The notes beneath the pieces are model-generated. The model worked only from the letters and a program-made list of their open reading frames with translations, was not told the origin of the DNA and did not search any database. Shown here piece by piece: positions 27,379-62,993 of a DNA stretch of 64,000 nucleotides. How positions within the stretch are numbered: position 1 is the stretch's first letter; the number at the start of each line of letters is the position of its first letter. The stretch comes from Marsupella aquatica (lineage: Eukaryota; Plantae; Marchantiophyta): contig OZ316893.1 of assembly GCA_973895155.1 (NCBI GenBank), positions 18,197,836 to 18,261,835 on the forward strand, given 5' to 3'. The position numbers and the translations under genes are program-made.

Positions 27379-27391
27379 AAGCAAAGGAGAA
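27379..27391 (+). promoter_or_regulatory. Polypurine tract AAGCAAAGGAGAA
   Basis: Immediately precedes the TG of the 3' LTR. Confidence 0.8.
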
Positions 27392-27512
27392 TGTAAACGA
27401 TAAAAATTACACCGGCGATATTATAGTTTTTCTTTAGGTTTAGAAGTGTCAACTAGAGGTCAACCAAGAGTATTTAGGAAGTAGTAAGCAAGGACCAGCG
27501 GTTATTCATTTT

Positions 27513-28123: not shown

Positions 28124-28593
28124 CCAGGAAGACAAAACTTCTTGACATAGTAATCAGCAGTTCTTGGCTTCCACTCATCGTTCTGGTAGGCATTAGTTAG
28201 CATTCTTGATGAACGAGCGAAGGAGATCAAAGAGGAGGCGCGAGTCGTCCAACTATAATCGGCGCACCCCAAGAAGTCGTAGAGGCCTCTGGCAGAGACG
28301 GACACGAGGCATAGGTATTTAGAGGCTCTGGAGCGCTAGGCGCTCTGTCACTTTTTGCTAGAAGTCTGGGGCAAGGTAGGGCTCCGCTCACCTTAGGAAT
28401 GCCAGCAATTTTGTAATAGTGTCCCTACTCAGTTGAGTAGTCTTTGAGTATAAAGAGAGAGTTTGGAATGAATGCAACAGAGTGAAGTCCGCAATTGAGC
28501 AGTGAAGGAGAACGTCGAATCAGAGAGAGAGAGAGAGAGAGAGAAGGAATTTGCCTTATGCAGCAAGTCGTTACTCGTTAATCGCAACGATGA

Positions 28594-28788
28594 ATGAATA
28601 TCGTCTCATTGCGAACCAGAACCTTACGGGCCAGTGCCTCAAGGTATAGGTTGAACAGACAGCTAGTGAGAAGCGGTGTCTGGTTGGAGATAGTGTGTTT
28701 TGAAGGCGATACACTGGTCGTCATACACCTCCATCATACAAGGGTAAACGTGATACTGGGGTACTTGCTTAGGGTAACCCTGTCATAG
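28594..28788 (+). CDS. LTR small ORFa (64 aa), 3' LTR copy
   Basis: Near-identical to 17065-17259. Confidence 0.6.
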   Translation: MNIVSLRTRTLRASASRYRLNRQLVRSGVWLEIVCFEGDTLVVIHLHHTRVNVILGYLLRVTLS

Positions 28789-28873
28789 TCACCCACACAA
28801 TCCGAAAATCAATTGCCAGGCAGGCTGATTCAAAGGACAGCCGGACTTAATCAGGTCATGGCTACTAAAAACC

Positions 28874-29194
28874 ATGAACGCAGACAGCAGTGACGACAAG
28901 TCTTGCTCCTTGATTACCTTAAGATCATTGGAACTATGGATCTGTTCTATCGGCACCCATCTTATTTCCTGTCAGTCACTATACGAGAACATTCCGATTT
29001 GCTTGATCACTTACCGCGAGTGGTGTGGGTTCATTGAGATTGTGTATAGAGAGGGGTTAGTGCTGGTCGAGGCTGAAGTACCTAAGAAGTGGAAGACGGA
29101 ACTCGACATTCAAGAGCACTTGGTCGGATTCACTTACGGGGACTGTGTCGAGATAGAAGGAGTGCCGCCTCTCAAAGGTCGGTTAATCGTTTAA
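28874..29194 (+). CDS. LTR small ORFb (106 aa), intact copy
   Basis: Conserved with 7514-7834(-). All differences in the core motif are synonymous. Confidence 0.7.
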   Translation: MNADSSDDKSCSLITLRSLELWICSIGTHLISCQSLYENIPICLITYREWCGFIEIVYREGLVLVEAEVPKKWKTELDIQEHLVGFTYGDCVEIEGVPPLKGRLIV

Positions 29195-31699: not shown

Positions 31700-32055
31700 T
31701 TGAGGAGGAGAAGGAAGACACCAAGAAGGTAGCAATTTCATTCTTCCAATCTCAGATGAAAGTGCATGACCCTATCATTTTGCAAGCATATAGGATTGGG
31801 CAAAAGAAGGGGGACCTTCCACGTCCAATCTTGGTGAAGTTTGCAGTTGAATCCGAGAAAGCTAGAGTGATGGCTAACAGGAGCATGCTTAAAGGGCTAA
31901 GGATTTGGTTGGATGATGATCTGACTCCCACACAAGTCCAAGCAAGGAAAATTGAGCTTGAGAAGGTGAGGGTAGCCAAAGACCAAGGATTGGTAGCCTA
32001 CTTGCGCAATGGACAAGCTGTTGTTACCAATAAGAAGAGAGTTGTTTCTAAATGA
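31700..32055 (+). pseudogene. C-terminal part of LINE ORF1
   Basis: RIGQKKGDLPRPILVKF...IWLDDDLT is typical of L1-transposase-type ORF1 of LINEs. Confidence 0.75.
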
Positions 32056-32067
32056 TGGATTGGGACC

Positions 32068-35000: not shown

Positions 35001-35290
35001 AAGGGAGATGGAAGGATATTGACAGGAAAAAGAGGGTTTGTCAACTATGTGATAGCTCTAGTATAGAGAATGAATATCATGTATTCATTGCTTGCAAGTT
35101 TTATGAGGGGGTTAGGATGGCATCTCAAATCTTGGTGAAAGATTTGTATGCATTGTTTGGTCTGCCCCCTCAACAACTTGGAAGATATATCTTTGCGGTG
35201 GATAGGGAAAGGAGAATAGGTTTGGAAAATCTTTCAGGGCTCTCTAGGTCCATAGGGCTCTCTAGGTCCATAGTTTCTTTGAGGACATAG
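32068..35290 (+). CDS. LINE ORF2 (APE endonuclease, RT, C-terminal CCHC), with one frameshift at ~34975
   Basis: WNVSGL, TETW, GDFNA, IDY, QAGFR, QGCPLSP, FADD, YKYLG. After the shift: SSHHLEVEQGRW..RVCQLC..ENEYHVFIAC. Confidence 0.92.
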
Positions 35291-37742
35291 TTGTCCTCTT
35301 CTGAGCAATCTCTTTTGGTTGCTCTTTTCTTTGATTGCATTGTACTTTACTTTTTGTGGCAGCTCCTTTGACTTTCATGGTCCCGGAGCTTATAATACAT
35401 TACCATTACCATTACCAAAGACCACGGTGGTTGATGCCAATGACTTCTACTCACTCCACCTATGCTAAAGAAAGATCCATGGAGTACAGGGAGATGTGTG
35501 GGGAACTTGCGCTCAACATCTTTGGGGAGGAGTTGGAGCAGGGACCTTTTCTCTAGAGGGAGATGTTGGAAAAACGCCGATTAGAAGAAGCGGTGGCTTT
35601 GGAGAGAAGAAAGAAGGACGAGGTCATCCGTTGGCTTAGGGCAAGGGAAGCCAAGGTGGAAGACCTGAAGGCGGCCAAGAAAGCCCAAGATGAGCTGTGG
35701 ATTAAGCGGCATGAGCTAAACATCATGCAGGGGCAATTGGATACCGCTCAGTCTGATAATCAGATTATCAAGGATAAACTGACTCAGACCCAGGGGGAGT
35801 TGGCCGATGCGGTCAAGGAAAGGGAGAAGTGGAAGCGGGAGCTGAGAAACGCAGAGGAGGCCCACATAGCAGCCAACAATCGGGCCATGGCGGAGACTCA
35901 GAGAAGGGAAAGGGCATTGAAGGGGGAACTCAAGGATATCCACGGAGCCCTTGAGCAGAAGGAGGCCGAATTAGGGAAATCCTATCAAGGGATTATTGTG
36001 CTGCGGCAGGAGCTTGCATCCCTGACGGCCAGCTTCAAGGCCGACCTGCGTGAGAAAGATGACTAGCTTGATCAGACTTATGCCAAAATGAATAAAATGG
36101 AGTCTGAGGTCGTAACGGAGCTTGACAAGGAGCTAAGAGCAACCCAGGAGGAGAGGGCTACATTAAAGGAGTTGGAGGAAGCCCAAAAAGAGTTGGAGGA
36201 AGCCCAGAAGGAGCTAGAGGAGGCGCGCAAGGACTTGGACGAAGTGCAGGAGGAGTTGGAGGAAAGCACGAGGAAGATGGAGAACTTACAGCGGCGAGCC
36301 GACAACCAAACGGAGCGGCTAAAGAAACAAGCCACAGTATTTAAGTGCTTGGCTTCATCAAGTCCAATTGGGGCAACCAAGTTGCCAGGAGTAGTATTGG
36401 CCGAAGGACAAGCCGCAATACTCGCACCGGTGCCGGAGATAAGTGGCAAGGGGAAGGGACCAGTTGCCGAAACAGGGAAGAAGAAGAAGCGGAAACCTTC
36501 TGGGTCAGGGAGTAATGCGGCTTCTCAAGCCATCGTGACCAAGGAGGTAAACCCGACACCAACCTCAGGCGGGATCACGGCAGAGGATCCAACTGCCCTA
36601 GAAGGCGGGGATGGCAGAGCCAAGGCCAAGACACTCAGTGATGAAGCCGGGGTACCGGATCCACCACTAGAGCATGCCGAGGAGACCGTAGCCGTATTAG
36701 AGGCCGTGGCCAATGCAGAGACCAAAGCCGAGGGTGGGCCTAGTCAGGCCAATGGAGAGTTGACTCGGTCCGGGGCAGGTAATCTATCAGAGGACGGACC
36801 TACGGCAGTGGCTGCGGAGGAAGCGTTGGGGGCGTCCATTGAGGACCAGCCACCGCTACCATGACGATGGTGGAGGGCCGCTCCTTTTAAGGAGGGCGGA
36901 CATGGAGGGAGGAGGCGTGAGTGGGCAGGGCGGGCTCAGATCTCCAAGTTTAGAATTAGGATCAGGACCAAGAGGCGGCCCTGACACTTAGATTAGTGGG
37001 ATTGCGGATCCACTAGTAAGAGCAACACTTGTGCTCCTGCCTCGTTGTACATAGGTAGATTACAGTTAGGTAGATTAGGCTTACACTGCAAGGAATTAGG
37101 CGGATCCACTGCCAGGATAAGTACCTGGCCTGCTTCTTTTGCAAGTTTTTAGTGCACCAGCAGGGCTGGGATCAAGTAGTAAAAGAAGCTCTCGGTTAGT
37201 TATACGGTGACCCGTGTGTATATTCATGTTTCCTCATGCCTAAGAGATGAATAGAGTTGGCCTCACGGCTTAGTTTGCAGATCTTGTGTATGAGAAGTAC
37301 TGTTTGTATGGCAAGTGCTTGGTATAACTCAATCAGAAGGAGTCATTTTGCTATTTGTGTGTCGCATTAACTTGTTTGAAGATTGCCCACATCAACCAAG
37401 AAGGGAGTAAGCAAGGTAGTAAGAGTTGGATGTGTCGAGCTGAGAGAGGTCTTAACGGCTTACCCAAGCCAGTTGGGGATCATTCCGGCGGCGGAATCCA
37501 AACATACCTAAAGGAAGACCAAGAGAGGAGGCCAAGGGAAGACATAGGAGAGGCCGGCTACGTATCTCATGACCCAATGAAGGATCTGTCCAATATATGT
37601 GTGTAAAATGTTAGTAGAGAGCTAGCACCGTCCCATGCCACTAAGCCGCGGAACCGGCCTCGTCAAGAGCGAAACCTGCGGGAATCGGCTTGTGCAGGGG
37701 GGTTTCTTGGGTTTAGGGAGCCATGGGACGCACCACAGTCTT

Positions 37743-45334: not shown

Positions 45335-47497
45335 TAACGCTGAGGGCCCAGGGGCCGCCGGTGGGGTCCTCCTATCAAGCTTCCTGTCTCTTTCCTTCCC
45401 TTTGCTTGAGACATATGATTCATATTCAGACATCTCCACGTCCGTGTCCCCCAGGTATGAAGAGCCATTCCTCTCTGCACTTTCACTAAGTGAATCCACC
45501 GAAGCTACAGTCTCTTTCGTGGCCACTACCACCTCAATAGGTGTAAAACTCTCCGCCCTAGCATCCAGTGGAGAAGGTGGCAATGCCTCCATGGTAGATA
45601 TCTCAGTGGTCTCCTTCCTCAATGAAGGCTGCGTCTCCTTATTTGCTAAGTTTACTAGCACCTCCTGTCTAGAATTTATCAGCCCCGCCTGTTCAGGTTC
45701 AATCCGGGTGGATTCAGCTTCTGCCCTCATCAAGGATTCCACAGCAAATAGATCTGCTGTCACCGTATCGTCCTCCCTAGGGGCAGTTAGACCCGCGCCC
45801 ATTCTAACCTGCAGGTTCATAGCGAGTTGTGTTCTGAGTACCTCCTCTGGGTCCCTCTGGACCAAATCAAGACGGCCTTCATCACGGAATGGGGGATCTA
45901 TGTCTTCAATCGTATGCCGTTTGGACTCTGTAACGCACCAGCTATGTTCCAATGATTAATGGTGAACATTTTCCATGACTACTTGAGAAAGTTCATGGAA
46001 ATCTTCATTGATGACTTTGCAGTATTTGGGAAAGCATCGAAACATGCTAAATACCTAAGGAAGACCTTCATGAGATGCAGAGAGGTAGGTCTCAAGTTAC
46101 ACCCAGATAAATGTTTCTTTGGAGTAACAGAGGGTGTGCTGCTAGGGCACAAAGTATCGAAGAAGGGCATTGAGATCGACAAGGGTAAGCTAGCAGTATG
46201 GCTTGATATCATGCAACCTAAGAACATAAAGGATGTGCGATCCTTCTTGGGGTGCATTGGGTATTACCGCCGGTTCATCAAGGATTTTGCCAAGCTAGCT
46301 TTACCATTAACCAACATGCTCAAGGCAGGCACAGACTTTGAACCCGCACCAGAAAGAGTAACAGCTGTGGTGGAATTAAAGCAAAAGTTAGTGGAGGCCC
46401 CAGTCATGATAGCACCAGACTAGAACAAGGATTTTCATGTCTTCGTAGATATCTCAGGCTTCTGTATCGGCTCAGTACTAAGTCAGTTAGATGAGAAAGG
46501 AAGGGACCATCCCATATACTTTGCAAGCCGCCAGCTTGCCGATGCCGAACGGAACTACTCCACCACAGAAAGAGAAGCTTTAGGAGTCATTTATTCATGT
46601 AAAAAGTTTTGGCATTATTTGCTAGGGCACAAAGTAATCTTTCATACTGATCATGAAAGTTTGAAGTACCTAGTAAATAAGCCGGACCTTACAGGCAGGG
46701 TAGCAAGATGGGTTTTGTTATTACAGGAATTTGACTACGAGCTAAAAATCAAGCCGGGAAAGCTACACGCCAATGCCGACTTCTTTTCAAGGATCACAGG
46801 TGAACTTGCCACCGATTGCATCGATGACCAATTTCCCGACAAAGAGCTATTCGTTGTGGAAATAGCTGATACATGGTACCCTGAGATTTTGCAATTTCTC
46901 AGCACGTCCAGATTACAACCAGGGCTAACCCGAGAACAAGCCGCAGTCTTTCTGCGGAAGGTCAGACAGTATTAGTACATTAAGGGTGTGCTACACAGGT
47001 ATGGAATCAACGGCACGATTCAAAGGTGTTTGGAGAAGGGAGAGGTAAAACAATTCTTACGGGCTATGCATGGGGAGGAGGTTGGCGGACATTTTGCTCC
47101 AATAACCATGTCTAAAAAGATATTAAATGCCGGTTACTAGTGGCCCACCTTGCACAAAGATGTCTATCAGTTTATCAAACAATGCGATCCTTGTCAACGA
47201 GCGGGAGGACCAAGGGCGTCCACAAGGCATCCTCTGCACCCTATTCTACCTCTGGCACCATTCGAGAAGTGGGGTATTGATTTCATGGGACCTCTGAAAC
47301 CATTGACCCATCCTCGGAGAAACAAGTACATAATCCTGGCCACGGATTATGCAACTAAGTGGGTAGAGGCCAGGCCGATGACGAAGGATGATGCAATTAC
47401 AACGGCTCGATTCATGTATGAGCAGATCTTCACCAGGTATGGAGCACCCCTAGAATTAGTTAGTGATAGAGGAACCCATTTTCTGAATGATATAATT

Positions 47498-50312
47498 CAT
47501 TGGAATGGATTTTTTATAAATTTTAATATCGTGAAACCCCACGGATAGGGGGGACAACAAAGGCCAATGCAGCCAGAACCTTACAACACAGCAGGGGCAA
47601 CAGTCCGGGGCCAACACACCCCAGCAGCCCCACACCCCCAACAGGGCAGACCACCGCAACATTAGCGGCCGACCCCTGGGAGCCCAAGAAAACTAATGAG
47701 CAACTAACAATGACACTACCAAGCTAAAAGACATCACACCACGCCATCACCAAAGCGAAGCCGACCAGCCCGAAACCAATCCTGACGATGAGAAGCAAGC
47801 CATTCGCCGGCCCGGCTCACCCGGGCATGACGCCTGCCAAGTGGAAAACGGCAGCCCACAGCAAACAAGTGATCTGCCGTCTCAGTGAGCACCAAGCCAA
47901 AATTCAAATTTCCTACCAACACCGCCCTGGAACATATGATCATTGCGGGCCCTCCAAATCATCCACAACATTTGGTAAAGCACAAACAGCTTCACAGAAT
48001 GAGTAACTTCCTTCCCCAGGGAATCATCCAACAGGGGCAGCAGACCTACACCGCAAGGCACCCGCAGAGTCCCAAGCACATCCCTATACATCTGCCAGCA
48101 CCTGATAGCAAACCTGCATTGAACAAACAGATGTGGCATCGACTCCAGCAGCCCACTGCAATACTTGCATTTGCCGTTACTAGCTTTAATTCTAAGAGCC
48201 CTCTCACCCGTGAACAGACCCCCAACAATCACCCTCCATATGAAGGTCTTGGCCCTGCAAGAGAGATCGGACCTCCACAGCCGACTCCATCTCTTATTCC
48301 ACTCCATCTCAGTCCCATTTGATGACCAGATACAGTTCAGACGCTCATAGAATGACACAAATGGTCTAAGAAACTCATACACCCTACAATTGGCAATATC
48401 AAAGTTCTTCAGGGGCCCAACCTTATCAGCCCATCTCCACCTCCGAGCCCCAGGGTCCAGGTTCAGGGTACAGGAGCCAAACGCCCAGATCTTTGCCAAA
48501 AATGCCTTAGTCAAACCGCGTTGCTCCTCAGAGAAACCCCTCATTTGATGCCACCGCAAGGGCATCTCCTTCCAACCAGCACTCTCCGTACACCATCCAT
48601 CCCTAATACTTCTCAAGCCTAGCCTGCCACAAATGGCAGTGATCCCTAATATATCCTCGTTTGGCAGCGAGTTAAATTCTGTACTGCATCTAAGGGTATC
48701 CTGAATGCTCCAGCGCCCTGGAATACCCCACATCCCAGGTTCGAACAAGAGATGTGCTCTCACCTGCTCCCAGGCCTTCCATAGACCAGCGGTATATGAA
48801 AGACCACCTCCGGTGCGGGGAGAACACAGCAAAAGCTTATCCTTGAGCGAAGACTGATTCCTGCGTATGACTTTGTAATTCAACCAGCCCATTAAGGAGA
48901 GGTTTGCAGCTAGCATTCTAGCCCATTCCAGATCAGGGGAATTCAGTGCTTTAATAAACCACTGTGACAAAAGAGCATCTAAGTGGCTCTTAAAGTCTTT
49001 AAAGCCCAGGCCACCTTCGACCTTTGGCAGAGACATCTTTGCCCAAGCAACCAACGGAATTTTCCTCCCTCCAGCAGGATTATAACCCCACAAGAAGTCG
49101 CGACTGAGAGCACTCAGTTTCTTTGCCAACTCGGCTGAAGCTTTGAAATGCATGACGTGATAAATTGGGATTGCCTGCAACACATGTTTTACTAATAAGG
49201 TCCTCCCTGTAAATGAGAGCAGCTTGTTAGTCCAAGATGCTAGCCGACCACTCACTTTATCTAGACAGAATTTGTGAAGTTGCTCAGTCCTCAAACCCAC
49301 ACCAATGGGGGCCCCAAGGTACTTTTGTATCTCCCCTCTCTGGCAAACGTGACATCCAACTTCCTGCAGCCACCGTGGGATGACATTAAGAGCCAGCGGG
49401 ATCACCATAGATTTTTGCAGGTTCAACCGGGCTCTAGAGGCCGTCTCATAGCAAGCCAACGCCACCATGGCCTCCTTGAAAGCCTGCTCTGAGGCAGGAA
49501 TAAACATACCCACATCATCCGCAAACAGACGATAACAGATAGTCAAAGTTTCGGAAATTGCAATACCACTCATCCTACCCGCAGCCAACTCCGCATCTAG
49601 GAAGTCCATTAATGGTTGGGTTGAAATGACAAAAAGCAGCAGCAATAGAGGGTAGCCTTGACGCACACCCCTTAGCAATTCAATCGGCCCAGAGCAATAA
49701 CCATTCACCAGAACCCTTGATGAAGCTTGCGAAAGAAGAGCTTGTACAAGCTTAATGAAATGACTGCTTATGCCCAATACGTGCATAGTCTCCCATATAT
49801 ACTCATGATTAACTCGATCAAACGCCTTTTCAAAGTCCAGCTTTAGAAAAAGTGATTCAGCCTTTTGCTTCTGCACCCAATCGCACGCCAACCATGCCAA
49901 TGAAATGTTCTCCAGGATATGATGACCTGGGATAAAACCAGTCTGCTGCGGGCTGATCATCTGGTTCAGTAGAGGCTTCAGCCGCAAAGCCAAGATCTTG
50001 GCAATGATCTTGTATACCGTGTTGAGCATCGTGAGCGGTCGCCAGTCTTTAAGGAATCGTTTGTCAGATTTTTTCGGAATAAACTTGATGATCCCCTCCT
50101 TGATCCCCCTATCCAGCTCCCCAGTAAGCCAGAATGCTTGAATCATCTCTACCAGATCATTTTCAATAAAGTCCCAACAAGCACGGTACACCTCTGCAGT
50201 CATCCCGTCCGGCCCAGGTGATTTGTCGCAAGGGAGCATCCATAATACATCTTTCACTTCCTTAGTTGTGTTCAAAGCATCCATTCTCCTCATTGCCCCA
50301 TCCGAAAGTGCA
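47498..50312 (-). mobile_element. 5'-truncated L1 LINE with 18-bp TSD TTTCTGAATGATATAATT
   Basis: TSD at 47480-47497 and 50313-50330. The 803-aa RT/zf-RVT ORF is related to the L1 at 39524-45857. Confidence 0.93.
47882..50293 (-). pseudogene. Truncated L1 ORF2 (RT plus zf-RVT)
   Basis: KSPGPDG, WRPLTML, KLDFEKAFD, FADD, CKYC..HLFVQC. Confidence 0.9.
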
Positions 50313-51005
50313 TTTCTGAATGATATAATTAGTCGTTTAAATGAGCAGTATTTAGTTAGACATAGACCTACTACTCCTTACCACCCAAAGGCAAATGGGT
50401 TGACAGAACAAGCCAATGGGATTATAGGAAAAATATTAAACAAGACTGTAGCTCTAAACAAACTCAATTGGGATGATAAACTGTTTGCTGTTGTTTTTGC
50501 TTACAATTTAGCCTATAAATCCACTACCGGTCATACACCCTTTTTCTTAACCTTTGGGCAAGAAGCTCTGGTACCCATGCAACTTGAGATACCTACATTT
50601 CAAATTACAATTGAGGAAAGAGTCTCTGAGGAGGAAAGCCTAAAGGAGCGAGAATATAGATTAGAAGCTTTAGAAGAAGCAAGAATGATTTCAGCCGAGA
50701 GAGTAGAATATAGACAGAATACCATGAAGCAACAGTATGATAAAAGATTGAAACCAGTTAGTATCCACACAAGAGATCTTGTATTACTTTATGATAGTAG
50801 GTATAGTAGGTTCCCAGGGAAACTTTACACTCGCTGGTTAGGACCCTTCAGGGTAAAAATGAAGTTCTCCAATGACTCTGTGCAATTGGCCAACATTACT
50901 GGAGAAATATACCCAGTTCGCATTCATTACGACCGCCTCAAGAAATACTATATGGACGAAGATGAAGTTGTTCGCGAGGACGCTTCACAATTAAGTGGGG
51001 AGCTA

Positions 51006-54000
51006 TGTGATGCCTAGTCAGGAATCATTAGGCCAGTTTAAATAGTAAAATCAGGAGTGTACCCTAGGAAACACCTTAGTATAGTAACAAAAATAGGGAA
51101 AATATAAATAATTAAGGGTGACTATAAACAACCCCCGTTGGTTACCCATAGCACTCGGGGTGGAAGTAGATACCGACAATCAACTCAAGAAGGGTATGAG
51201 CAACGTCAATCAAGCTGCTCATTTTTGGGGATGCCTATTAGAACGGGAAACTGAGTACATTGGGACCTATGAGGACGAAGAATCAGAGAGAGCGGCTCCA
51301 GAATGGCAGGAGCTCGCTCGGCTGTGGGAGCTGCAGAAGTCTACCTTCTTAGGAGGAGAACTCATTACGGCTGAATTCTTGTGGACGCCTACTGCCGACG
51401 AACTCGACGATCTTCTATTTTGTGAGAACATAATAGTTGGCATCCGGGAGGCCATCAATCGCTGCAACGACATACACTGGGAGTTGAAGGGTAGCACGAA
51501 GGGGTGGACAAAGGCAACCGTGCTAGGAGAAACATCCACGGCAGCCGCTATGAAGAGGAAAGGGAACAACAACAAAGAAGCCACCCCTGCGAAAAGAACA
51601 AGGTCGGTGGCACCCAGGAAACCAGAAGAGCAGGGAAGTAGGAGGCAGGCGGAAGCCGAAGAGGAGGAGGTCGACCCCATCAATGTCGTTCCAACAAGAG
51701 ATGACACCTGGAAAGGCTGGGCGGCGACCCTCCCCGAGGAGGTGCAATTACACTTTGCACGAGAAGAGGATGCATGCTTTACGACTATGCAGACTCGGAA
51801 ATACCAGGGCTTCATGGCCGGATCCGGCTTGGAAGCCTTCGTAAAGTTACCATGGTTGAAGCCGGAGGTGCCGGATTCAAATTTACTAGAATTCGTGGGA
51901 TCATGGGAGCCCGAGACCAATTCCACAAGGGTGTATGGGAAGGATTTCTATCTCACTCCCCGGGTGATTGCCGAAGTGTTTGGCTTGCCAATGGGCAATA
52001 AGACCAAAGTAGATACCAGGAAGACCTTGCCAGACAAGGAGTTCCGGTCGTTTCTAGGGCCATCAACAAAGAATGGCTTCTTCCGAAACACCTGCACAAA
52101 CCCGCACATAGGAGAAATGATTGATTTCTTGCGGGTGACCATGCATTGCAACTTGCCAAGGGTAGAGATCGGCAAGGCACAGGTCTATCTGGCGGAGAGG
52201 CCAGACCCAAGCCGAGACTACAACGGGTACCTCCTCACCCAACTAAAGAAGATCTTGAAGGAGGAACAACTGGTGATCGGCATGGGAAGCGTGTCCCGGC
52301 TTGGTTATCATATGCCACTGTTGTGCCAGTATGCCCGAAGTCAGATATTTTCCCCGGTACTGCCCCTGCAGGCAAGAGCACCAAAGGAGGTTCCGGAACT
52401 GAGGCCGACAACAGAGAACCAACCCAGCCCGACAGTCCTACAATCGAGCAGGTGTTTAGGCCGAGGAAGGAGGACTTGCCAATGCAGCAACCAGGCATGC
52501 AGAATCTGTTGAAATTGCTGGAGAAGGAAAGGAGAACGCAACGGCAACGGGACCGGTACAGAATACTGCTCCCGAAGTTGGCCTTAGCCAACTTACCAGG
52601 GAAAACCCCTTTATCGGGGTCAAGGAGAGAAGGAGGCCGAAACACGAGCCGGGAGTCCAAATGTATGTAGGAGCTTCAAGTCCCGAAGCTGAGGAAAAGC
52701 AGCCCAAAGCTCCTGGTCGCGACAAGGAGAAGATGAGATCAACGTGGAAGCCGAAGGAACCAGGACCCGTGATCTGTGAGGCCGTGTTCACGGCAAGACC
52801 AGGACAGCAATGGGGGAAGCTGGTAGTCCAAGCCGAGGAGGAGGCGGTAGAAGGCTACGACAATGATGACTCTGGCTACGGGTTGGACCATCATGTTCCA
52901 GGAATAAAGGACTTGTGGCAGGTTCATCCCCACGCTTCCAAGAGTAGTTCGAGGGGACCCAACCCGACAGAGCAGCCCCAAGTCTCCCCCACCAGATGTC
53001 GCTCCCCCGAGCTTTGAGGGCATAGAACAGACGGCACAGGAGTTTCAGGAATGACTCAGGGAGGAAGAAGAGGTAGCCCTGGCTAGGGAGAAAGATTTAC
53101 CAAGAGGAGAATGGCTAGAGGACATCAGGCGGCTTGCAGAAAAATGAAGCAGCCCTCCAGCCAGGATAGAAGAAATCCGCAAGGCGGCTTGGGAACAAAG
53201 GCCGCGGTGGATGATGCCGATGACTTCTACTCACTCCGCCTATGCTAAAGAACGAGCCATGGAGTACGGGGAGATGTGTGGGGAACTTGCGCTTGGCATC
53301 TTTGGGGAGGAGTTGGAGCAAGGACCCTTTTTCCAGAGGGAAATGTTGGAGAAGCGCCGATTAGAAGAAGCGGTGGCTTTGGAGAGAAGCAAGAAGGACG
53401 AGGTCATCCGTCGGCTTAGGGCAAGGGAAGCCAAGGTAGAAGACCTGAAGGCGGCCAAGAAAGCCCAAGATGAGTTGCGGATTAAGCGGCATGAGCTCAA
53501 CATCATGCAGGGGCAATTGGATACCGCGTAGTCTGATAATCAGATTATCAAGGATAAACTGATTCGGACCCAAGGAGAGTTGGCCGATTCGATCAAGGAG
53601 AAGGAGAAGTGGAAGCGAGAGCTGAGAGATGCAGAGGAGGCCCACATAGTAGCCAACAATCGGGCCATGGCGGAAACTCAAAGAAGGGAAAGGGCACTGA
53701 AGGGGGAACTTGAGGATATCCGCAGAGCCCTTGAGCAGAAGGAGGCCGAGTTAGGGAAATCCTATCAGGCGATTATCGTGCTGCGACAGGAGCTTGCATC
53801 CATGATGGCCAGCTTCCAGGCCGACCTATGTGAGAAAGACGACCAGCTTGATCGGACTTATGCCAAGATGAATAAAATGGAGTCTGAGGTCGTTATGGAG
53901 CTTGACAAGGAGCTGAGAGCAACCCAGGAGGAGAGGGCTACCTTAAAGAAGGAATTGGAGGAAGTCCAAAAGGAGCGGGAGGAGGTGTGCAAGGACCTAG

Positions 54001-55517
54001 ATGAATTGCAGGAGGAGTTGGAGGAAAGCACGTGGAAGATGGAGAACTTACAGCGGCGAGCCAACAACCAAACGAAGCGGCTGAAGAAACAGGCCGCAGT
54101 ATTTAAGTGCTTGGCTTCCTCAGGTACAACTCCAATTGGGGCAACCAAGTTGCCAGGAGTAGTACTGGCCGAAGGACAAGCCGAGACACTCGCACCAGTG
54201 CCGGAGGTAAGTGGCAAGGGGACGGGGCCAGCTGCCGAACCAAGGAAGAAGAAGCGGAAACCTTCTGGGTCAGGGAGTAATACGGCTCCTCAAGCCGTCG
54301 TGACCAAGGAGGTAAACCCAGCACCAACCTCAGGCAAGGTCACGGCAAAGGATCCAACTGCCCTAGAAGGCGGGGATGGCAAAGCCGAGGCCAGGATACT
54401 TGGTGATGAAGCCAGGCTACCGGATCCACCACTAGAGCATGTCGGGGAGGCTGTGGCCGATGCTGAGGCCGAAGCCGAGGGTGGGCCCAGTCAGGCCGAT
54501 GGAGAGTTGACTCGGTCCGGAGCAGGTAATCTGTCAGAGAATGGACCTACGGCAGTGGTTGCGGAGGAAGCGTTGGGGGCGTCCATTGAGGACCAGACAC
54601 CGCTGCCATGACGGTGGTGGAGGGTCGTTCCTTTTAAGGAGGGCGGATGTGGAGGGAGGAGGCGTGAGTGGGCAGGGCGGGCTCAGATCTCCAAGTTTAG
54701 AGTTAGGATCAGGACCAAGGGGCGGCCCTAACACTTAGCTTAGTGGGATTGCGGATCCACTAGTAAGAGCAACACTTGTGCTCCTGCCTCGCTGTACATA
54801 GGTAGATTACAGTTAGGTAGATTAGGCTTATGCTGCAAGGAATTAGGCGGGTCCACTGCCAGGATAAGTACCTGGGCAGCGGGGAGTTCAGGGCCTTCTT
54901 CCTTAGCAAGTTTTTAGTGCACCAGTGTGGCTGGGATCAAGTAGTTAAAGAAGCTCTCGGTTAGTTATATTGTGACCCTTGTGTATAGTCATGTTTCCTC
55001 ATACCTAAGAGATGAATAGAGTTGGCCTCACGGCTTAGTTCGCAGATCTTGTATATGAGAAGTACTGTTTGTATGGCAAGAGCATGGTATAACTCAGTCA
55101 AAAGGAGTCATTTTGCTATTTGTGTGTCGCATTAACCTATTTGAAGATTGCCCACATCAACCAAGAAGGGAGTAAGCAAGGTAGTAAGAGTTGGATGTGT
55201 CGAGCTGAGAGAGGTCTTAGCGGCTTACCCAAGCCAGTTGGGGATCATTCCGACGGCGAAATCCAAACATACCTAAAGGAAAACCGAGAGAGGAGGACAA
55301 GGGAAGGCCTAGAATAGGCCGGCTACGTATCTCATGACCCGATGAAGGATCTGTCCAGTATATGTGAGTAAAATGTTAATAGTAATAGCAGTGTAAGGAA
55401 GTTAGCAGCGTCCCATGCCGCTAAGCCACGAAATCGGCCTCGCCAAGAGCGAAACCTGCGGGAATCGGCTTGTGCAGAGGAGTTTCTTGGGTTTAGGGAG
55501 CCATGGGACGCACCACA
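51006..55517 (+). repeat. 3' LTR of element A (4512 bp)
   Basis: TG...CA ends. Follows the PPT. Same termini as the TSD-flanked solo LTR 29275-37737. Confidence 0.92.
51118..54611 (+). pseudogene. LTR-encoded accessory ORF of family A (~1150 codons, few lesions)
   Basis: Consecutive fragments 51118-52512, 52146-52670, 52661-53017, 53211-53531 and 53580-54611. Confidence 0.8.
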
Positions 55518-58412
55518 ACCCGGAATGTTGTCCCTATCAACTGTTTTGCTTCTTTGAATTTTCTTGTCATTTGTCCGGTTGAATCCAAAAGATTGCCCTT
55601 GAGCCAATTATTGCAAACCTCTCTCCATAAAGAGTAGAGCTTCTCGGGAGCAAACAAAATCCAATTGTACTTGTTGATGCTATTCACCTTTAACGTAACT
55701 TTGGCAAGTGTTTCATACTCATGGGAGGAAAGACCAAACAACTCAAAGTTAGCTAGCTCAAAGTTTTGAATCCCAAAATACTGGAAAGGCTCTACACGAC
55801 TCTCGCGTAGAAAGGAGAGAAGGACAAAGTGTCTGAATTTTGTTCACAACTCTCATGGAGAACCTACCTGAAATTCTGGAGATTTCCGACCCGATGGAAG
55901 TGGACGAGCTGGTCGCCCCATATCATTGTATTGCATTCTTGCATGTTTCACTTGATCAATAAATGGAGATGAAAACCGATGTGCCTCCGCCTGAACTTTC
56001 ACCGGAGTTGACCCTTTGAGAATTCGCGCGCGACGATATTTGAGCAAATTGGCTGTTTGCATGAGAGATGGTTGGGTCTTTGAACTCTGGATAATTTTCT
56101 TGGCGGCCATTGTGGAATGTTGACCACTGATGGCAAAGAACTTGAATTCCACAAGCTTCTTGGTGTCAATATCCTTTCCCGCAAGGTCAATTAAACTTGA
56201 TACTCTGTCGATCATCTTGTAAGGAACCAAATCTACAGGTAAAGGTTCTTGCCCTGCATTTGTCATCATCAGTTGCGCAAGATGGTTGACATGCTCCTCA
56301 TTGAGGAGTCTCTCATTTATCTTTGCAGGAGGGGGATGGATGTTTTCAACCGGGACAGAAAAAAATTTGGATATCCCGAAACAATACCAAGACTTATTCA
56401 ACTCCAATGTTTTTTCTGCAGTCTCCAGACAACTAGCTTCGCGGAACTAGGGTTCTCATCAATATCCACAGCTTCCTGATTTTTCTTTGCTTTCTTGGGC
56501 TTGTGAACGACAGCTTGAGAGGTGATGACAACCTTCTTCTCAACGTTTGGGGCCTTCTTCTCCACGGCTCTGACCATGGGAGTTTTCACAACAATTTCAG
56601 CCGACTCTCTGGTCGTTCCCCTTCGCTTAGGAGGCTTTGCCCTTGATTCCACAACTACTAATTCAACATCAAGTTTTGCTTTTTTCTTTCCCTTTGGTGA
56701 AGGATCTTTTACGACTCCCTTTTGCTTCAGCGTCCTGATCTCCGGTTCGACCTTTTCAACTTTCTTCCTGACCAACGCAGATTTCTATCCAACCCAAGAC
56801 TTTTGAGATGGTTTCTCCTCCTCAGGTTTTGCTGGTGAAGCGACTTTCTTTGCTTTGCTTGATTTTCGTATTCTGTCCTTGATTCCTTGCGCTTCCTCGA
56901 CAACTTGAATTCTCTTTTGAGAAGATGTTGCCTCTTCTTGTTTATCAACCGGAGATACGTTTTTTCCACCTTTCACTTGAGGCACAACTTTGCGCTGGTC
57001 AGAAACAAGAACTCTTTTTTGAGATGGTTTCTTGTCTTCTTTTTGTTCTTCCCATTGAACCTTCTTGCGGCCTGTTTTTGCCGCAGGCGGCTCATTTGCT
57101 TGATCAACGACTCTCACTCTCTTCCTAGGTAGTTTAGCTTCTTCATTTGTTTTCTCAAAATCAACCTTCTTCCGACCTAGTTTCCCTGATGGTGATTTTT
57201 TGTCCACTGCTTTTTTCTTCCAACTGGGTGTGGATGACTTTGACACGACACCAGCTTTCCCCTTCCTGGGCAAAACTCCCTTTGAAGTCTTTGTGTGTCG
57301 CTTCTCTGTTGGAGGCTTTGCTGGGGGGATGACCTCATTTTGTTGAATTTCCCCACTCTCAACATCATCGTTGGTTGGTTCAACTCCACCTTCTAAACTT
57401 GTTGACTCTGACTCATTCTCTGACTCATTCTCTGACTCATTCTCTGACCCCGCCCGATTCTGAAAAGTCTTCTTGCTCTCTTCTTGGACACTTCCCTCCT
57501 CTCCGTCATCCTCATTTTCTGACTCATAGACTGATATCGTTTCATGGGACTTGCTCTCTCCAGAGGCGGACGAGTCATCATCGGAGGAGTCATCCTTGTC
57601 CTTTCCCTCCCCATCATCATCGTCAATCTCTTTTCCACCAGCTTCTTTCTTCTTTGGGCGTACCAAGTCTTGGATTACTGGATGCCCTCGAATCCATTCC
57701 TCCACCTTTGTCTAAGTGAAGTGTTTCATGAACATAACATTCAGAGAAATAGTCATCTTTCTCCTCCAGTCATCGTCTGGGATCTTCATCCGCATTATGT
57801 GATCCACCTCTCGTGTCCGAGAGATAAAATATTCCGACTGCTTCATGACATAGGAGACCCGTCCAAGCCCCATAATTATTTCATCAACCGTAAAGACCCG
57901 GTCAGGTGAGAGCCATCTATCCGCCAAAGGATCGAAGAAATCGCATGAGACAACATTTGTGTCCTGGTTGTAAGGTTCAAGACAATGTGCTGAGCAAAAC
58001 CCATGAAGTGGAGCAACCATCTGCTTGAAATTCCAAGAACTCTCAGACTCCATGTGACGCTGCCGGTACGGCGGGTAATGAGTGATTCGGCCTAACGACG
58101 CTTAGCATGTGCGTTAGGGGTATCTTAGGCCATAATTATTAGCATAACAACAGTATTTAGGTAGCCATTATGAGTAGGAAATCATTAGTCAATAAGGGGC
58201 GTTCGTGTTCAGCCCGGCCGCGGGTTGCCATTCGCACGCCCGGGTTGCGAGCGTGTAATGGGCCCCTTTCTCGGGTTCATATAACAAACTCAGGGAGGCG
58301 GCCACTGACACACGCTGACCCGAACCGGCAGATTGTCCTGTACACTGCAAGCTTGAAAGGCTCGGCCTATAAGCAACGAGGAGGCATCGGGCAACCAATG
58401 AGATCTCAGGGG

Positions 58413-58419
58413 TATAAAA
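58413..58419 (+). promoter_or_regulatory. Conserved TATA box upstream of the LTR B ORF
   Basis: GGGTATAAAA lies 358-360 bp from the LTR start in all three B-type LTRs (1274, 12334 minus strand, 58413). Confidence 0.65.
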
Positions 58420-58479
58420 TGGGGGCCAATCCTTGGCAGGGCACCAGTTCTTCAGTTTACGCGCCAGCTTCGACCCCAG

Positions 58480-61137
58480 TTCTCTCACTTAGCCTTAGTC
58501 GTCGTCTATGTCCTCTGAATGTCGCACACGATCCTGTCCAATTTGGCCATATGATTCTGGACGTAGTTCCTGTCTATTGGAGGGCACTTGGCCGACTCAT
58601 TAAAACACGCCAACCCGCGATGATACAAAATCGAACGCGAGTACAAGAGAGCCATTCGCCTAGTAGGACAACACCACTATCTCCTTAACTTTGATGACCC
58701 ATCCTAGAGCGAGCTTTACCGACCCAAAGAAATATCAAGGTACTTCTTTGACGGAGGCAAATACATCGGCTTTTGGGAGGCATTGCTTTGGCTTACGGAC
58801 GAGGTCTTCAATATCCCGGGCACGATCAACTTGCAACAGCACCACTTCGACCACATCCCCGCTCGGGTCTGAGCTATTATCAATAGCGAGTTCAACACTA
58901 CCCGGTCGACAGGGCCGCCTATACTTGCTTCAAAAAACCTCCACCGGCACCTGCAGAACTTCATGGCAACTCTACCATCAACGACCAGTGCCGGCCAACT
59001 CGTGCCCGTGCCTGCACCTACACCTCCTCGGTCTCACCCGAGCCAGTCCCCACCACCGGTCCCACCACCTCTTTGAGTATGATCCGTGGTGAATGCGGTG
59101 AATATTAGCTTCGAAGACGAGGAGGCTCACCCTCCTCTGAATCGATGGCCGCGGGGTACGACGCAACAAGCATCGAATAACCCAGCATCACTCTAGCAAG
59201 CCCGAGGGGATAACACGGTCACTCTAGCGGCCCCGACACCAATACTCATGGCAGTCGCGCTACCACCACCTGACCGAGAGGAAGGAGAGATGTCCCCTTC
59301 TTCTAGTCAACCCGGGAATCAGTCTCGGGGTAGGAAGAGGAAGGAACCCGCAGCCGTATCCGGGTTGCCTTTGGCCACGGTTGCGGTAGCCAAGCTGACC
59401 ATGCATCGCATGGGGGACAATGTTCACAAGAACATCCTCCACTCCAAGCATGCATGATATCTGAAGACCCAAGGGTTTGAGCACCTTGCCTCTCTCCCTT
59501 GGAACGGAAGTAGGTACTACGGGCAGGATATGACGGAGTTCATTCAGAACTTTGACGAGTCCCGTCAACAAACCCGAGCGCACGGGAGATTGATGTGTCT
59601 CAATGAGGCATGTTTGAAGATGATTTTTGGCCTACCCGAGGGGATAAACCGGGTAGACTCACGAGCTCCTGGGGGCAAGGGAGCTAAATACCAGTCTTCT
59701 AGCTTCCCGACTGAGGGAGCAGTGGACAACGGATTCTTAATGAGAACGTGCCTCATACCAGAAGTGGCAGAATGCTTGGAGTTCCAGCGGTATGCCCTCC
59801 ACATGATGGAACCTAGAGGCAAAATATCGGCCGCCCAGGTCATCCAGGTGGAGAACTATCGGCCCAGGAAGTGGGCGTCCTTCTTTGTCAAGAAGTTCCA
59901 CAAGGAGATGGAGCGGAGAAGAAAGACTTTGTACCTTGGCGGAAAGGCGTACTTCGCTAGCCACATCAAAATCATCATCGAGTGGTATGCTCGTCTCGAC
60001 CGCCGCAGCCTCCCGCGTATCAATGAGCCTGAGCTGACCCCATCAAAATGGGTGTTCCCAGTCCAGGTGAGGCGACCGCAGCCCAAGGCCCAAAGTCTGG
60101 CAACTGCAAGCCCTGCTACCCCGGCCCCGCAACCCGCCATTGCCGCCCCGTGAAGCATACCCATAGACGTTATCGCGACCTTAGACGTGATCAATTGGGA
60201 CAATGCAATCAAAGCCGGGCCGGATGAAGCCATACCCGAAACAAATGCCATGGTAGCCGAGGAGATTCCACCACCCCCCGCGGTTGTGTAGGAGAACCGC
60301 CCACCTCCAGTGGAACCAGCCCCTTTGACCAACTTACCTCAAGGGCTGAATGTGTCCACTCCTACTCCCGCACGGGTTGGAGTCTGCCCGTGCCCAAATC
60401 CAGATGGACACAATCTAGACCATCCGGAACTCTTTGCGCCGGGCACATTTATGAACGGGTTGTTGGGAGATTTCTCTCAACAGATCTCTCGGAACACCGG
60501 GGAATACATGGCCCGAAGGGTGGCTTACTTCTTCAACCAGGAGTTGGTTGCGGCTGTAAGGGCAGGACATGCGCAGGCAGAGACAACACAGAGAACAAAG
60601 CAATACCGGGTTGAGTCTGCCTACCTAAAGGACGAAGTGGCAACCCTGGAGGCTGAACTCCAGCAACTGCGGCCTCAGGTAACGGCCACGGAGGACCAGG
60701 TTGCCAAGGCTAGGGCCCGAGGAGCTTTAGCAGAACAGACCGGGCTCGAAAAGGACGTCGAGATTGCACAGCTCCGGACCAAGATTGACGGTTTGAAGGG
60801 ACAAGCCATCAGTTGGCAAAAGGATCTAGAGGAAGCTGACTCTAGGTCTCAATGGGACACAACCGAGATTGACACCCTGAAGATAGAGGTGGCGCGGCTT
60901 CAAGGAGAAGCCACGAAACAGGCCCAATTGGTGGATAAGCTGACAAGCGACACCCAACAACTAGAGGAGGCATGCCAGGAGGCCGTGGAAGAGGCGAAAG
61001 AGGCGGATGCGGCGAAGCGGGAGAACAAATCTCTGTTGGACCAGGTCCAACTACTGAAGCAGGACGCCGACAGACTCAGAAGGCAGTGGGACAGCCGCTC
61101 CCACTCAGGCGGCTTTGGCAAGCGTGCCAGGCATTAG
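58480..61137 (+). pseudogene. LTR-encoded accessory ORF of family B
   Basis: Homologous to 9684-12262(-). Ends GKRARH*. Confidence 0.78.
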
Positions 61138-62993
61138 CGGCGGAGTAGGATCAAAATAGAGTTAGGAATAGCTAAATCAGGCTATAGGGACAAGCACCTG
61201 CCCTAGTTAAAGCAACGTACCCATATCATCAAATCCGGATCAAAGGCGGACAACACAAAGGCTTAGAAGCCCGTAAGCCGGGGTCGATCCTGCTATCAAT
61301 TGAGGTACGTTCCAGCTGCGGAACACAAACCATACCTAGGAGGTGTCCGTATATGACAATAGACGCACTTAGCACTAGTTTACGCGAGTTAGGTGCATTC
61401 CGTGCCTCCCTCCCTGCCCGAACCCTCATTTTGACGAAGGATGTGCCTGTCTAAGCCGAAGCCCGGGTTAAGGCCTAGGCTGACGACGTGACACTCCAAT
61501 GTCAGCAGAAGAGATGGGTTGTCCTTTGGGGACGCAAATCTCATACAGTCTGCGAGAGTGCCAAAACTCACAAAGTTTCTTCGTCCATTTTCTGTTTTAA
61601 CTCCCCTCACAATCAAACGGTAGTTGCCTTTGACTGGTTGCAATTCAAAAGACCATGAATTCATAGTTGCCAAAATATTCTCAAGTTTTTCGACCTTGGG
61701 GTTTCAATCCAAAGCCTGTCAAAACGGAAATAAACAGAGCGAACTCCTAGAAGACAAGGAGAAATATGTCAAACATCTACACGACACTCGCGTAGAAAAT
61801 AAAGTGAGCCGACAAACTGTTGATTCATTATAAACAAAATGATGTGAAAACATCCTTTACAAAATGGCCTCTTTGGCGTGTAAACGGTCCCGTAAAAAAT
61901 GACTATCAGAACTTTGGAGATAGTCTTATGAGCCATTTGAGCTCATCATGATTCGGAGTCAAAACATTGTCTAGATTTAAGAAAACAATCCGATCCGCTA
62001 GAAACATAAGAGAACCCTAACTCAAAGTATGCGCACACATGTGGCCATGAAGGCAACAATTTTTTTTCCAATTCAATCCATCGCACTTTGGTATCCAATT
62101 GTCTTTCCCTCTCTCGGCCATCGGCCAGCTCCTGTCGCAAGTCATGAACTTGATGATCTCAAAACTTCTCCATCTCAAGAGAAGCTTTCATGGACTTTGC
62201 CGCTACGTTGCAAGTAGTCAAATGCTGGATCTGTGCCCATCGATACTTTGCAAACATCTGCTCCCGCTCGTATTCTATTGCTTCCTTTTCATCCTCTAAT
62301 GCTTTTTGGAGAATGGAATTCTCCATCAAACTCATATCAAAAGCAGAAATACTTTTTTGTAACAATCCCTCAATCTTCTCAAAATTGTCCTTGCGATGAG
62401 CGCCTTCCTCTAGAAAAGTTGAACGAACAAAGTCACATGAACAATGTTTTGATTCCATATGGTACTATCTCCGAACAAGGATTCTACACGATAGTCGCAT
62501 AGAAAACCTGAGTTTCTACACGATAGTTGCATAGAAATCCATTATCTTCCAAGATTGGAGAAACGGTTCTACGCGAGACTCGCGTAGAACTAAATAGAAA
62601 ATTCTAAATTCTGACATAAGGGCTCTCAAATAGAGATTATGGGTTGATGAAAGAGACCCATTCTACATGACTCTCGTGTAAAGCAGACTCAAGTTTAGCA
62701 CAATCCATAGAAAACAGAGAAATTATGTAGGTCAGAATTACCTTTGAGCTTCCTCAATGCAGCTAGAGCAAGTAATCCGACGTCATTTTCTGCCAAAGAA
62801 GTCGTCATTCCCTTTGCACGTGCGAACTCCTCCATGACAATGTCAAGGACCGACGAGTTGAGTGAAAATAAATAGAAAACACAAATGATCCAAGGTCCGA
62901 GGTCCGAGGTCCTTTTATAGTCCGAGACAAGCGTGAAAGAGCGTATCGTCCAAGGCGAGCGTGAAAGAGCGTGAAACAATCTGAGGGCCAAGC

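What the first reader, a model, noticed from the sequence alone, without database searches (positions are those of the whole stretch)
51006..55517. Giant protein-coding LTRs: the accessory gene lies inside the LTR in families A and B but outside it in family C
Seen: TSD-flanked solo LTRs and PPTs fix the LTR limits at 3.4-4.7 kb, and ~65-77% of each is one decayed ORF. The shared core GLxxFxxLPW..EF[VI]..G..[IL]F[GK]LP plus coiled coil occurs in LTR A (2 copies), in LTR B (2 full copies and 1 partial), and between pol and the PPT in element C (23963-27314). Known: 3' accessory ORFs with PMD/Transposase-type domains occur in Athila/Tat relatives. LTR-internal genes are known mainly from retroviruses (MMTV sag, HIV nef). 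Inference: the PPT/U3 boundary moved relative to the gene, so each element carries two copies and every solo LTR retains one.
Basis: partly seen in the sequence, partly recalled or inferred. Interest (0 to 1): 0.8.

Follow-up and report, generated by a model that had tools for sequence, protein, structure and literature searches.

The report
Giant LTRs carrying a VANC-like gene
In what is likely a liverwort genome, two families of jumping elements have 3.4-4.7 kb end repeats that are mostly one gene, now broken but with the marks of past selection, whose protein is predicted to fold like a known anti-silencing DNA-binding protein, so even the leftover single repeats would keep a copy of that gene.

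Summary
Confirmed and extended. Units A (4.5-4.7 kb) and B (3.4-3.9 kb) are LTRs of Ty3/gypsy elements. One copy of each has TG..CA ends and an exact 5-bp target duplication; another copy of each starts right after integrase and a polypurine tract. One broken gene fills 65-79% of each. Its homologue in element C lies between pol and the PPT. New here: the gene was under purifying selection while inside the LTR (core dN/dS 0.18 in A, 0.05 in B). A natural unbroken 906-aa relative is colinear with B. Two AlphaFold models of the core match only VANC21 among 48,161 solved chains (Z 7.6 and 6.5; next 2.1 and 2.6), and distant relatives hit PF20167 below cut-off. In B the gene has its own TATA box, and a second TATA-like element lies downstream, so the gene is probably in U3. 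Not shown: a paired LTR with a PBS for A or B, transcription, DNA binding, or the direction of the move. VANC-type motif arrays are absent from the non-coding LTR parts. No earlier scan note covers this. New variant of a known kind.

The parts
51006..55517 (+). LTR A1, 3' LTR, 4,512 bp, TG..CA, terminal inverted repeat 7 of 8
50993..51005 (+). polypurine tract of the A1 element, inside the last codons of integrase
   Evidence: nearly the same sequence precedes B2 (88% over 59 bp)
45845..51017 (+). truncated RT-RH-INT of the A1 element, split by a LINE at about 47550-50270; the INT frame ends just inside the LTR
51151..54611 (+). broken accessory gene in A1 (frameshifts, stops, a 184-bp deletion near its start relative to A2)
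51754..52350 (+). globular core of the A1 gene; predicted fold like VANC21 (DUF1985/PMD/Transposase_32 type)
53532..54110 (+). coiled-coil part of the A1 gene
   Evidence: dN/dS 0.21
54632..54647 (+). PPT-like run just after the A1 stop codon, also in A2 at about 36885; possible relic PPT (weak, post hoc)
54612..55517 (+). non-coding 3' 0.9 kb of LTR A1, with a motif shared by A, B and E about 250 bp from the end
29275..37737 (+). solo LTR A2, TSD GTCTT, LINE inserted at about 31672-35415
1..377 (+). 3' end of a third LTR A, cut by the window start
58053..61493 (+). solo LTR B1, TSD CTCCA, 3,441 bp
   Evidence: joints skipping 3,446 bp (LTR plus one TSD) in 3 of 4 runs
58413..58419 (+). TATA box at about +361, present in all three B copies, upstream of the gene
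58519..61137 (+). broken accessory gene in B1; core at 59458-60012
8797..12694 (-). LTR B2, 3' LTR after integrase and PPT, 3,898 bp; gene at about 12228-9686
9449..9485 (-). second TATA-like element with a C-run/G-run hairpin downstream of the B2 gene, alike to the TATA region of gene-less LTR E
   Evidence: score 47; best of 200 shuffles 36
916..2422 (+). B3: 5' part of a B-type LTR joined to a protease region and followed by RT-RH on the same strand; probable truncated 5' LTR
3160..5842 (+). solo LTR E, 2,683 bp, TSD CCCAT, B-like ends and 3' region, no core gene found
15870..29260 (+). element C, full length: LTRs 15870-17733 and 27392-29260 (K2P 0.016), PBS-like TGG at 17738, gag-PR-RT-RH-INT, TSD GTTGC
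23807..27314 (+). homologous accessory gene of C, between pol and the PPT (27380-27391); core at 25388-25987
15997..16602 (+). a different ORF inside LTR C, upstream of its TATA at +1059; weak likeness to Rep_fac-A_C

Best explanation
Units A and B are 3.4-4.7 kb LTRs of Ty3/gypsy retrotransposons that each contain one broken accessory gene bearing the marks of purifying selection; the gene likely sits in U3 with its own promoter, would therefore be copied into both LTRs and kept by every solo LTR, and encodes a protein predicted to be a nuclear, coiled-coil, VANC/PMD-fold DNA binder that most likely shielded the element from silencing. Shown: the LTR ends, TSDs and PPT context, the gene inside them, its homology to the pol-to-PPT gene of element C, and the selection signal. 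Inferred: priming at the PPT that ends pol puts the gene into U3; reverse transcription duplicates it; LTR-LTR recombination leaves a cassette of promoter, gene and 3'-end region; the core binds DNA and the coiled coil oligomerises, as modelled for VANC. Odds by step: LTR-resident gene 0.9; U3 rather than R 0.75; VANC/PMD/PF20167 fold family 0.8; anti-silencing as the main job 0.45.
For: Ends and TSDs. Two independent copies (A1, B2) start exactly after integrase and PPT without a TSD. Joints skip 3,446 bp (B1 plus one TSD) in 3 of 4 public runs, and A's 3' end joins to other places. Selection between copies that both hold the gene in the LTR: A core dN/dS 0.18 (bootstrap 0.10-0.31, 196 codons), N-terminal part 0.22, coiled coil 0.21; B core 0.05 (0.04-0.13, dS saturated). 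Changes by codon position are 41/35/79 over three A blocks and 34/16/74 in the B core. Natural unbroken relative P0100 (906 aa) is colinear with B1 from 58540 to 61131. Models have pLDDT 92 and 94. VANC21 is the only chain with Z of 5 or more among 48,161 for both: Z 7.6, rmsd 4.0, 190 aligned; Z 6.5, rmsd 4.2, 172 aligned. Foldseek ranks it first for the A model (TMq 0.49, E 1.1). The Atlas gives DUF1985 0.90 and PMD 0.88. PF20167 is hit in 8 of 41 relatives. Basic NLS-like runs are present and no 19-residue window reaches hydrophobicity 1.6. A TATA lies upstream of the gene in 3 of 3 B copies and a second TATA-like element downstream in B2. Papers report PMD-DUF1985/VANC structural likeness (passages).
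Against: No paired A or B LTR and no PBS after an A or B end in the window. Every window copy is broken. Z of 6.5-7.6 is middling at 9-10% identity, the two models share most alignment rows, and Foldseek did not list VANC21 among the rows shown for the B model. The PF20167 hits are below cut-off, come from weaker relatives and sit on a long branch; the window cores hit no Pfam family. No repeated 6-8-mer enrichment and no tandem array in the non-coding parts of A or B, whereas VANC targets form arrays. The A C-terminal tail looks neutral (0.79) and two B N-terminal blocks have intervals that include 1. No clear second promoter was found in A. CpG depletion in the A LTRs (0.56-0.64 outside the first 145 bp) is like that of the A pol (0.49-0.57), with no clear protection.
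Confidence: 0.6

Rival explanations
1. Same LTR-resident gene and fold, but another nuclear job: chromatin tethering or integration targeting, nuclear import of the pre-integration complex, or transcriptional control of the element, without removing silencing marks.
For: A shared fold shows no function. MAIN/MAIL PMD proteins act on host genes, and direct DNA binding is unproven (passages). No VANC-type motif arrays in A or B non-coding LTR parts. Reviews leave aORF function open.
Against: The only solved match is the DNA-bound anti-silencing protein. The core diverges fast between elements with close pol genes (about 24% against 68%), as expected of sequence-specific factors in an arms race (inference).
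Confidence: 0.35
2. The gene lies in a very long R region: the TATA near the LTR start is the only promoter, and the gene is the first ORF of the genomic RNA.
For: The clearest TATA boxes are upstream of the gene (B +361 in 3 of 3 copies; A about +97 in 2 of 2). No clear downstream TATA in A.
Against: B2's 3' 890 bp matches gene-less LTR E both at a TATA-plus-hairpin element and over the last 270 bp, and E's TATA resembles C's at +1059. Gag would have to be translated behind a 2.6-3.7 kb ORF.
Confidence: 0.2
3. Origin by capture, not by a PPT shift: a short LTR took in the 3' end of another element (gene, PPT, LTR) by nested insertion or template switching, separately in A and B, and LTRs were then exchanged between pol lineages.
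For: A PPT-like run directly follows the stop codon in both A copies. A and B genes are not resolved as sisters although their pol genes are 68% identical, and the pol downstream of B3 is only 51% identical to that of B2. A and B 5' ends show no similarity.
Against: No internal TSD or second LTR start was seen: A1 has TG where A2 has CA after the run. No such run in B. The B3-to-pol link is across a deletion junction. The deep nodes of the core tree are open. This rival concerns history and is compatible with the best explanation's present-day anatomy.
Confidence: 0.35
4. The units are independent non-autonomous elements, not LTRs.
For: No paired copy or PBS seen for A or B.
Against: No terminal direct repeats inside the units. 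Two units begin exactly at a PPT after integrase in two different elements, with no TSD. TG..CA ends with 5-bp TSDs in solo copies.
Confidence: 0.05

Closest known systems
Plant Ty3/gypsy elements with a sense 3' additional ORF (Athila; sunflower Athila 14 aORF with Transposase_32, PF20167; PMC11728184 passages; review PMC7264820)
   Same: Extra sense ORF downstream of pol, PF20167-related core, NLS-like motifs. Element C has this layout.
   Different: The papers read place these ORFs in the internal region. In A and B the whole gene is inside the LTR, and no transmembrane segment was found.
VANC anti-silencing proteins of VANDAL (Mutator-like) DNA transposons; VANC21, PDB 9LNK/9LNJ (PMC5735166 and PMC13547354 passages)
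   Same: Predicted core fold (Z 7.6 and 6.5), TE-encoded, coiled coil, fast divergence between related elements.
   Different: Host element is an LTR retrotransposon in a probable liverwort; 9-10% identity; no Pfam DUF1985 hit; no target-motif arrays found; activity untested.
Plant Mobile Domain proteins (PF10536): PMD-A of retrotransposons such as Ogre, and MAIN/MAIL1 (bioRxiv 10.1101/2024.09.27.615353 and PMC6317226 passages)
   Same: Same structural superfamily by the Atlas (0.88, PMD on 14% of that cluster) and by the reported PMD-DUF1985 likeness.
   Different: No PF10536 hit in the window cores or in 41 relatives; the position inside the LTR.
Elements with very long LTRs: OTA non-chromoviruses up to about 5 kb (PMC6317226 passages); Retrosat2/RIRE3/RIRE8, over 3 kb with ORF0 (PMC3485330 passages)
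   Same: LTR size.
   Different: In the passages seen the extra ORF is listed apart from the LTR (ORF0 upstream of gag-pol), and no gene is said to fill the LTR.
Genes within LTRs: MMTV sag and HIV nef in U3; 5S rRNA segment in Cassandra LTRs (all recalled, no call)
   Same: A gene in the terminal repeat, duplicated at each replication.
   Different: Those are retroviral or RNA genes and much shorter. Here a gene of roughly 870-1,200 codons fills two thirds or more of a plant retrotransposon LTR.

Membership tests
LTR (solo or 3') | TG..CA ends with a short inverted repeat | tested here: met
   A 7 of 8, B 6 of 7
LTR (solo or 3') | 4-6 bp TSD around solo copies | tested here: met
   A2 GTCTT, B1 CTCCA; empty-site joints of 3,446 bp
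LTR (solo or 3') | PPT immediately 5' of the 3' LTR | tested here: met
   A1 and B2
LTR (solo or 3') | paired 5' LTR followed by a PBS | tested here: inconclusive
   None in the window for A or B. B3 lies upstream of PR-RT but is truncated. No genome held. Met for C.
Ty3/gypsy | order PR-RT-RH-INT | tested here: met
   C complete; RT-RH-INT order for the A1 and B2 elements
Chromovirus | chromodomain after INT | tested here: inconclusive
   No chromodomain hit in the INT C-terminal ORFs scanned (A1, B2), and A1's INT ends at the PPT; decayed or plant-specific chromodomains can escape Pfam
Athila/Tat (OTA), Phygy or Selgy lineage | placement on an RT-RH-INT tree with reference elements | not testable with these tools
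   No reference set available. RH runs straight into INT in C, which fits Athila, Phygy, Selgy or liverwort 'Tat Z2' (PMC13468544 passages)
Transposase_32 (PF20167) | Pfam score at or above 45 bits | tested here: not met
   Window cores no hit; 8 of 41 relatives score 21-34 bits. A distant relative, not a member by cut-off.
PMD (PF10536) and Transposase_28 (PF04195) | Pfam hit | tested here: not met
   0 of 31 window ORFs and 0 of 41 relatives
VANC | DUF1985-type DNA-binding fold | tested here: inconclusive
   Sole structural match at Z 7.6 and 6.5; Atlas 0.90; no Pfam PF09331 hit; Foldseek not significant
VANC | encoded by a VANDAL Mutator-like DNA transposon | tested here: not met
   Encoded in Ty3/gypsy LTRs
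VANC | arrays of a short target motif in the element's non-coding DNA | tested here: inconclusive
   Not found in the non-coding LTR parts of A or B; their leader regions are not in the window
VANC | sequence-specific DNA binding and loss of methylation in trans | not testable with these tools
   Needs experiment
env-like aORF | transmembrane segment | tested here: not met
   Highest 19-residue Kyte-Doolittle mean 1.59 over 8 window pieces and 3 relatives

The most novel reading that the evidence does not exclude
These LTRs are self-contained anti-silencing cassettes. Each carries promoter, VANC-like gene and 3'-end signals, is exchanged between pol lineages, and survives as a solo LTR. Host removal of the element by LTR-LTR recombination then leaves behind dispersed genes that can keep the family unsilenced in trans. 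VANC-type counter-defence would be far older than eudicot VANDALs and present in LTR retrotransposons.
Probability: 0.3. Interest if true: 0.85.

Novelty: new variant of a known kind. Interest (0 to 1): 0.62.

Why it matters
Solo LTRs are usually counted as gene-less remains. Here they keep a whole accessory gene, so solo-LTR formation would not remove the element's trans-acting factor. The VANC21-like fold gives a testable function for a class of extra ORFs whose role reviews call unknown, in a non-seed plant lineage. In practice, LTR finders with usual LTR-length limits may miss such elements, and gene annotators may call their LTRs host genes (several relatives are deposited as unnamed Calypogeia fissa proteins; their context was not seen). 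No report of a plant retrotransposon LTR filled by a protein gene came up in searches or in the review's main text. The library lacks most subscription papers, including Steinbauerova 2011 on extra ORFs, so absence from print is not established.

Tried and rejected
No whole genome is held, so intact A and B elements could not be sought. The word-based homologue search found nothing for the core among long proteins or for the LTR C ORF. Metagenome scans by protein profile and by LTR-end pattern were empty; a viral-contig scan could not be built from the wide alignment. No RNA holder was listed, which says nothing on expression. The PDB sequence search with the wide profile gave only coiled-coil matches and nothing for the LTR C ORF. 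Foldseek against viral models gave no hit at E of 0.001 or less. An internal short LTR starting at 54648 in A was considered and not supported, because A2 has CA where A1 has TG. Read depth is high over all of A and B and far lower in their 3' flanks, but summed contig depth is no copy number and was not used for LTR-to-pol ratios. CpG ratios gave no clear sign of self-protection. The ORF at the window end (63468-63998) resembles the core motif by eye but had no tblastn hit below E 0.05. The VANC21 structure paper and Sasaki 2022 are not held, so DNA-contact residues could not be mapped. Earlier scan notes: three look-ups gave one note on a fungal element with a protease gene, not used. What follows the LTR A end in other copies remains unseen.
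Full report
Setting. The window is a nest of retrotransposons and no whole genome is held. A profile of four window cores found 89 relatives at E of 0.001 or less among 1.84 billion representatives. Of 20 looked up, 8 carry an organism name: 6 Calypogeia fissa, 1 Riccia sorocarpa and 1 Selaginella moellendorffii. The host is therefore probably a liverwort (inference).

The units are LTRs. Self-BLAST gives a 4.5-kb repeat A (51006-55517; 29275-37737 with a LINE inside; a 3' end at 1-377) and a 3.4-3.9 kb repeat B (58053-61493; 12694-8797 minus; partial 916-2422). All whole copies run TG..CA with short inverted ends. A2 has the duplication GTCTT and B1 has CTCCA. A1 and B2 have no duplication and begin right after an integrase C-terminus and a purine tract; their upstream 59 bp are 88% alike. 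Neither unit has terminal direct repeats of its own. In public runs, contigs skip exactly 3,446 bp at B1, which is the LTR plus one duplication, in 3 of 4 runs, and A's last base joins to other places; the empty form may come from paralogues of the target repeat. What is missing is a 5' LTR with a PBS for A or B: none is in the window. B3 lies upstream of PR-RT-RH on the same strand but across a deletion. Element C (15870-29260) is complete, with 1.86-kb LTRs at K2P 0.016, a TSD and a PBS-like TGG.

The gene. One broken gene covers 77, 79, 76 and 65% of A1, A2, B1 and B2. Its core of about 190 residues is 23-25% identical among A, B and the ORF that C carries between pol and PPT (E 1e-13 to 1e-19), and a coiled coil follows. 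A natural relative, P0100, is one open 906-residue frame that matches B1 in order from 58540 to 61131, so the pieces belong to a single gene. Pairwise NG86 on ungapped, stop-free codons gives dN/dS 0.22, 0.18, 0.17 and 0.21 for four A blocks (upper bounds 0.31-0.41), 0.35 for a 32-codon block (interval includes 1) and 0.79 for the tail. B gives 0.05 (core, dS saturated), 0.12-0.24 for four other blocks and about 0.47 for two short N-terminal blocks whose intervals include 1. Transition bias lowers NG86 ratios, so the codon-position counts are the safer test: 41/35/79 over three A blocks and 34/16/74 in the B core. Shifted frames mostly give 0.6-2.3, with exceptions at 0.30, 0.41 and 7.6. Both copies in each pair hold the gene inside the LTR, so by parsimony selection acted while it was there.

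What the protein is like. The window cores hit no Pfam family at E of 0.05 or less. Of 41 relatives scanned (of 89), 8 hit Transposase_32 (PF20167) at 21-34 bits against a cut-off of 45; none hit PMD, Transposase_28 or DUF1985. AlphaFold models of the A1 and B1 cores are confident (pLDDT 92 and 94). Among 48,161 solved chains only VANC21 bound to DNA reaches Z 5: Z 7.6, rmsd 4.0, 190 aligned, and Z 6.5, rmsd 4.2, 172 aligned, with the next rows at 2.1 and 2.6. Foldseek ranks VANC21 first for the A model but at E 1.1 and does not show it for the B model. The Atlas gives two unnamed clusters at 0.91, a DUF1985 cluster at 0.90 and a PMD-containing cluster at 0.88. The Z values are middling and the models share most alignment rows, so this is good evidence for the superfamily and only a lead for function. 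There are basic NLS-like runs and no transmembrane segment. Against a strict VANC analogy, the non-coding parts of A and B show no tandem arrays and no enriched 6-8-mers; one 5-mer in B2 reached 1 of 100 shuffles among 24 tests.

Where in the LTR. All three B copies have a TATA at about +361, some 100 bp before the first codon. Downstream of the gene, B2's last 890 bp match the gene-less solo LTR E (3160-5842) at a TATA-plus-hairpin element (score 47; best of 200 block shuffles 36) and over the last 270 bp (85; best of 30 shuffles 43). E's TATA resembles the one at +1059 in LTR C, though that alignment is not above its shuffles. The simplest reading is a gene with its own promoter in U3, ahead of a conventional promoter, R and U5. 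For A this is less clear: a TATA lies at about +97, no clear second TATA was found, and a PPT-like run directly follows the stop codon in both copies. That pattern was chosen after the fact and matched 3 times in the window.

How it arose. But RT-RH of the A1 and B2 elements are 68% identical against 42-44% to C, while the A, B and C cores fall in separate groups of an open polytomy (53 of 63 rows kept). One shift followed by fast divergence, or separate captures with LTR exchange, both fit. The direction is not shown. C's own LTR also carries an ORF, weakly like the RPA C-terminal OB fold (0.83, lead only).

Known and new. Extra ORFs between pol and the 3' LTR, some with PF20167, PMD or Transposase_28, and LTRs up to about 5 kb are known (passages of PMC6317226, PMC11728184, PMC11963269 and PMC3485330; main text of PMC7264820). 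Structural likeness of PMD and VANC is reported (passages), and VANC action through motif arrays is established (passages). Those texts place the extra ORFs in the internal region. Searches returned no plant element with a gene filling the LTR. Supplements were not opened, the VANC21 structure paper was seen only as a reference, and MMTV sag, HIV nef and Cassandra are recalled. Verdict: a real feature, a new variant of a known kind, with a testable anti-silencing hypothesis. Interest 0.62.

Noticed in passing
window 15997-16602 and 27519-28123: Both LTRs of element C hold an ORF of about 200 codons upstream of the TATA at +1059; the 3' copy has a frameshift. Atlas hits are Rep_fac-A_C clusters at 0.83 (lead only); no sequence relatives or PDB hit. 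It may be a second, unrelated U3 gene.
   Followed up: partly
window 3160-5842: Solo LTR E, 2.68 kb, TSD CCCAT, B-like ends, no core gene, with tandem arrays (26-bp unit x 4.2 at 3754-3863; GGTTAG-rich words) in its 5' part. It could be the gene-less state or a target-rich derivative.
   Followed up: partly
window 55225-55275, 37460-37510, 61260-61340, 9030-8950 (minus), 5455-5540: A shared element about 230-250 bp from the 3' end of A, B and E: two short inverted repeats followed by CATACCTA. Not folded or tested.
   Followed up: partly
window 45872-46975 against 14855-13890 (minus): The RT-RH next to LTR A1 and LTR B2 are 68% identical over 220 columns, although the two LTRs share almost no DNA similarity.
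   Followed up: partly
window 55853-58101 (minus): Broken ORFs of another repeat, target of the B1 insertion, with an ISGQHS motif that recalls ParB/DndB-like domains (recalled; no Pfam hit).
   Followed up: no
window 63468-64000: An ORF cut by the window end with a GLxxxxxIPW motif like the start of the core; no tblastn support.
   Followed up: partly
window 7447-8796 (minus): 3' part of a C-like LTR, inserted in the pol downstream of B3 and cut by the B2 element.
   Followed up: partly
window 31672-35415, 39785-43864, 47550-50270: Three LINE insertions; the first has a (CATTAC)n tail and a 978-codon EN-RT frame with very low CpG (0.10).
   Followed up: no
window 51764-54868 and 52121-55106 (joints): Contigs from public runs skip about 3 kb of LTR A, which suggests gene-deleted LTR A derivatives (short side 21-28 letters, weak).
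   Followed up: no
window 54111-54608: The A gene's C-terminal tail has dN/dS 0.79 in frame but 0.30 in the +1 frame; unexplained.
   Followed up: no
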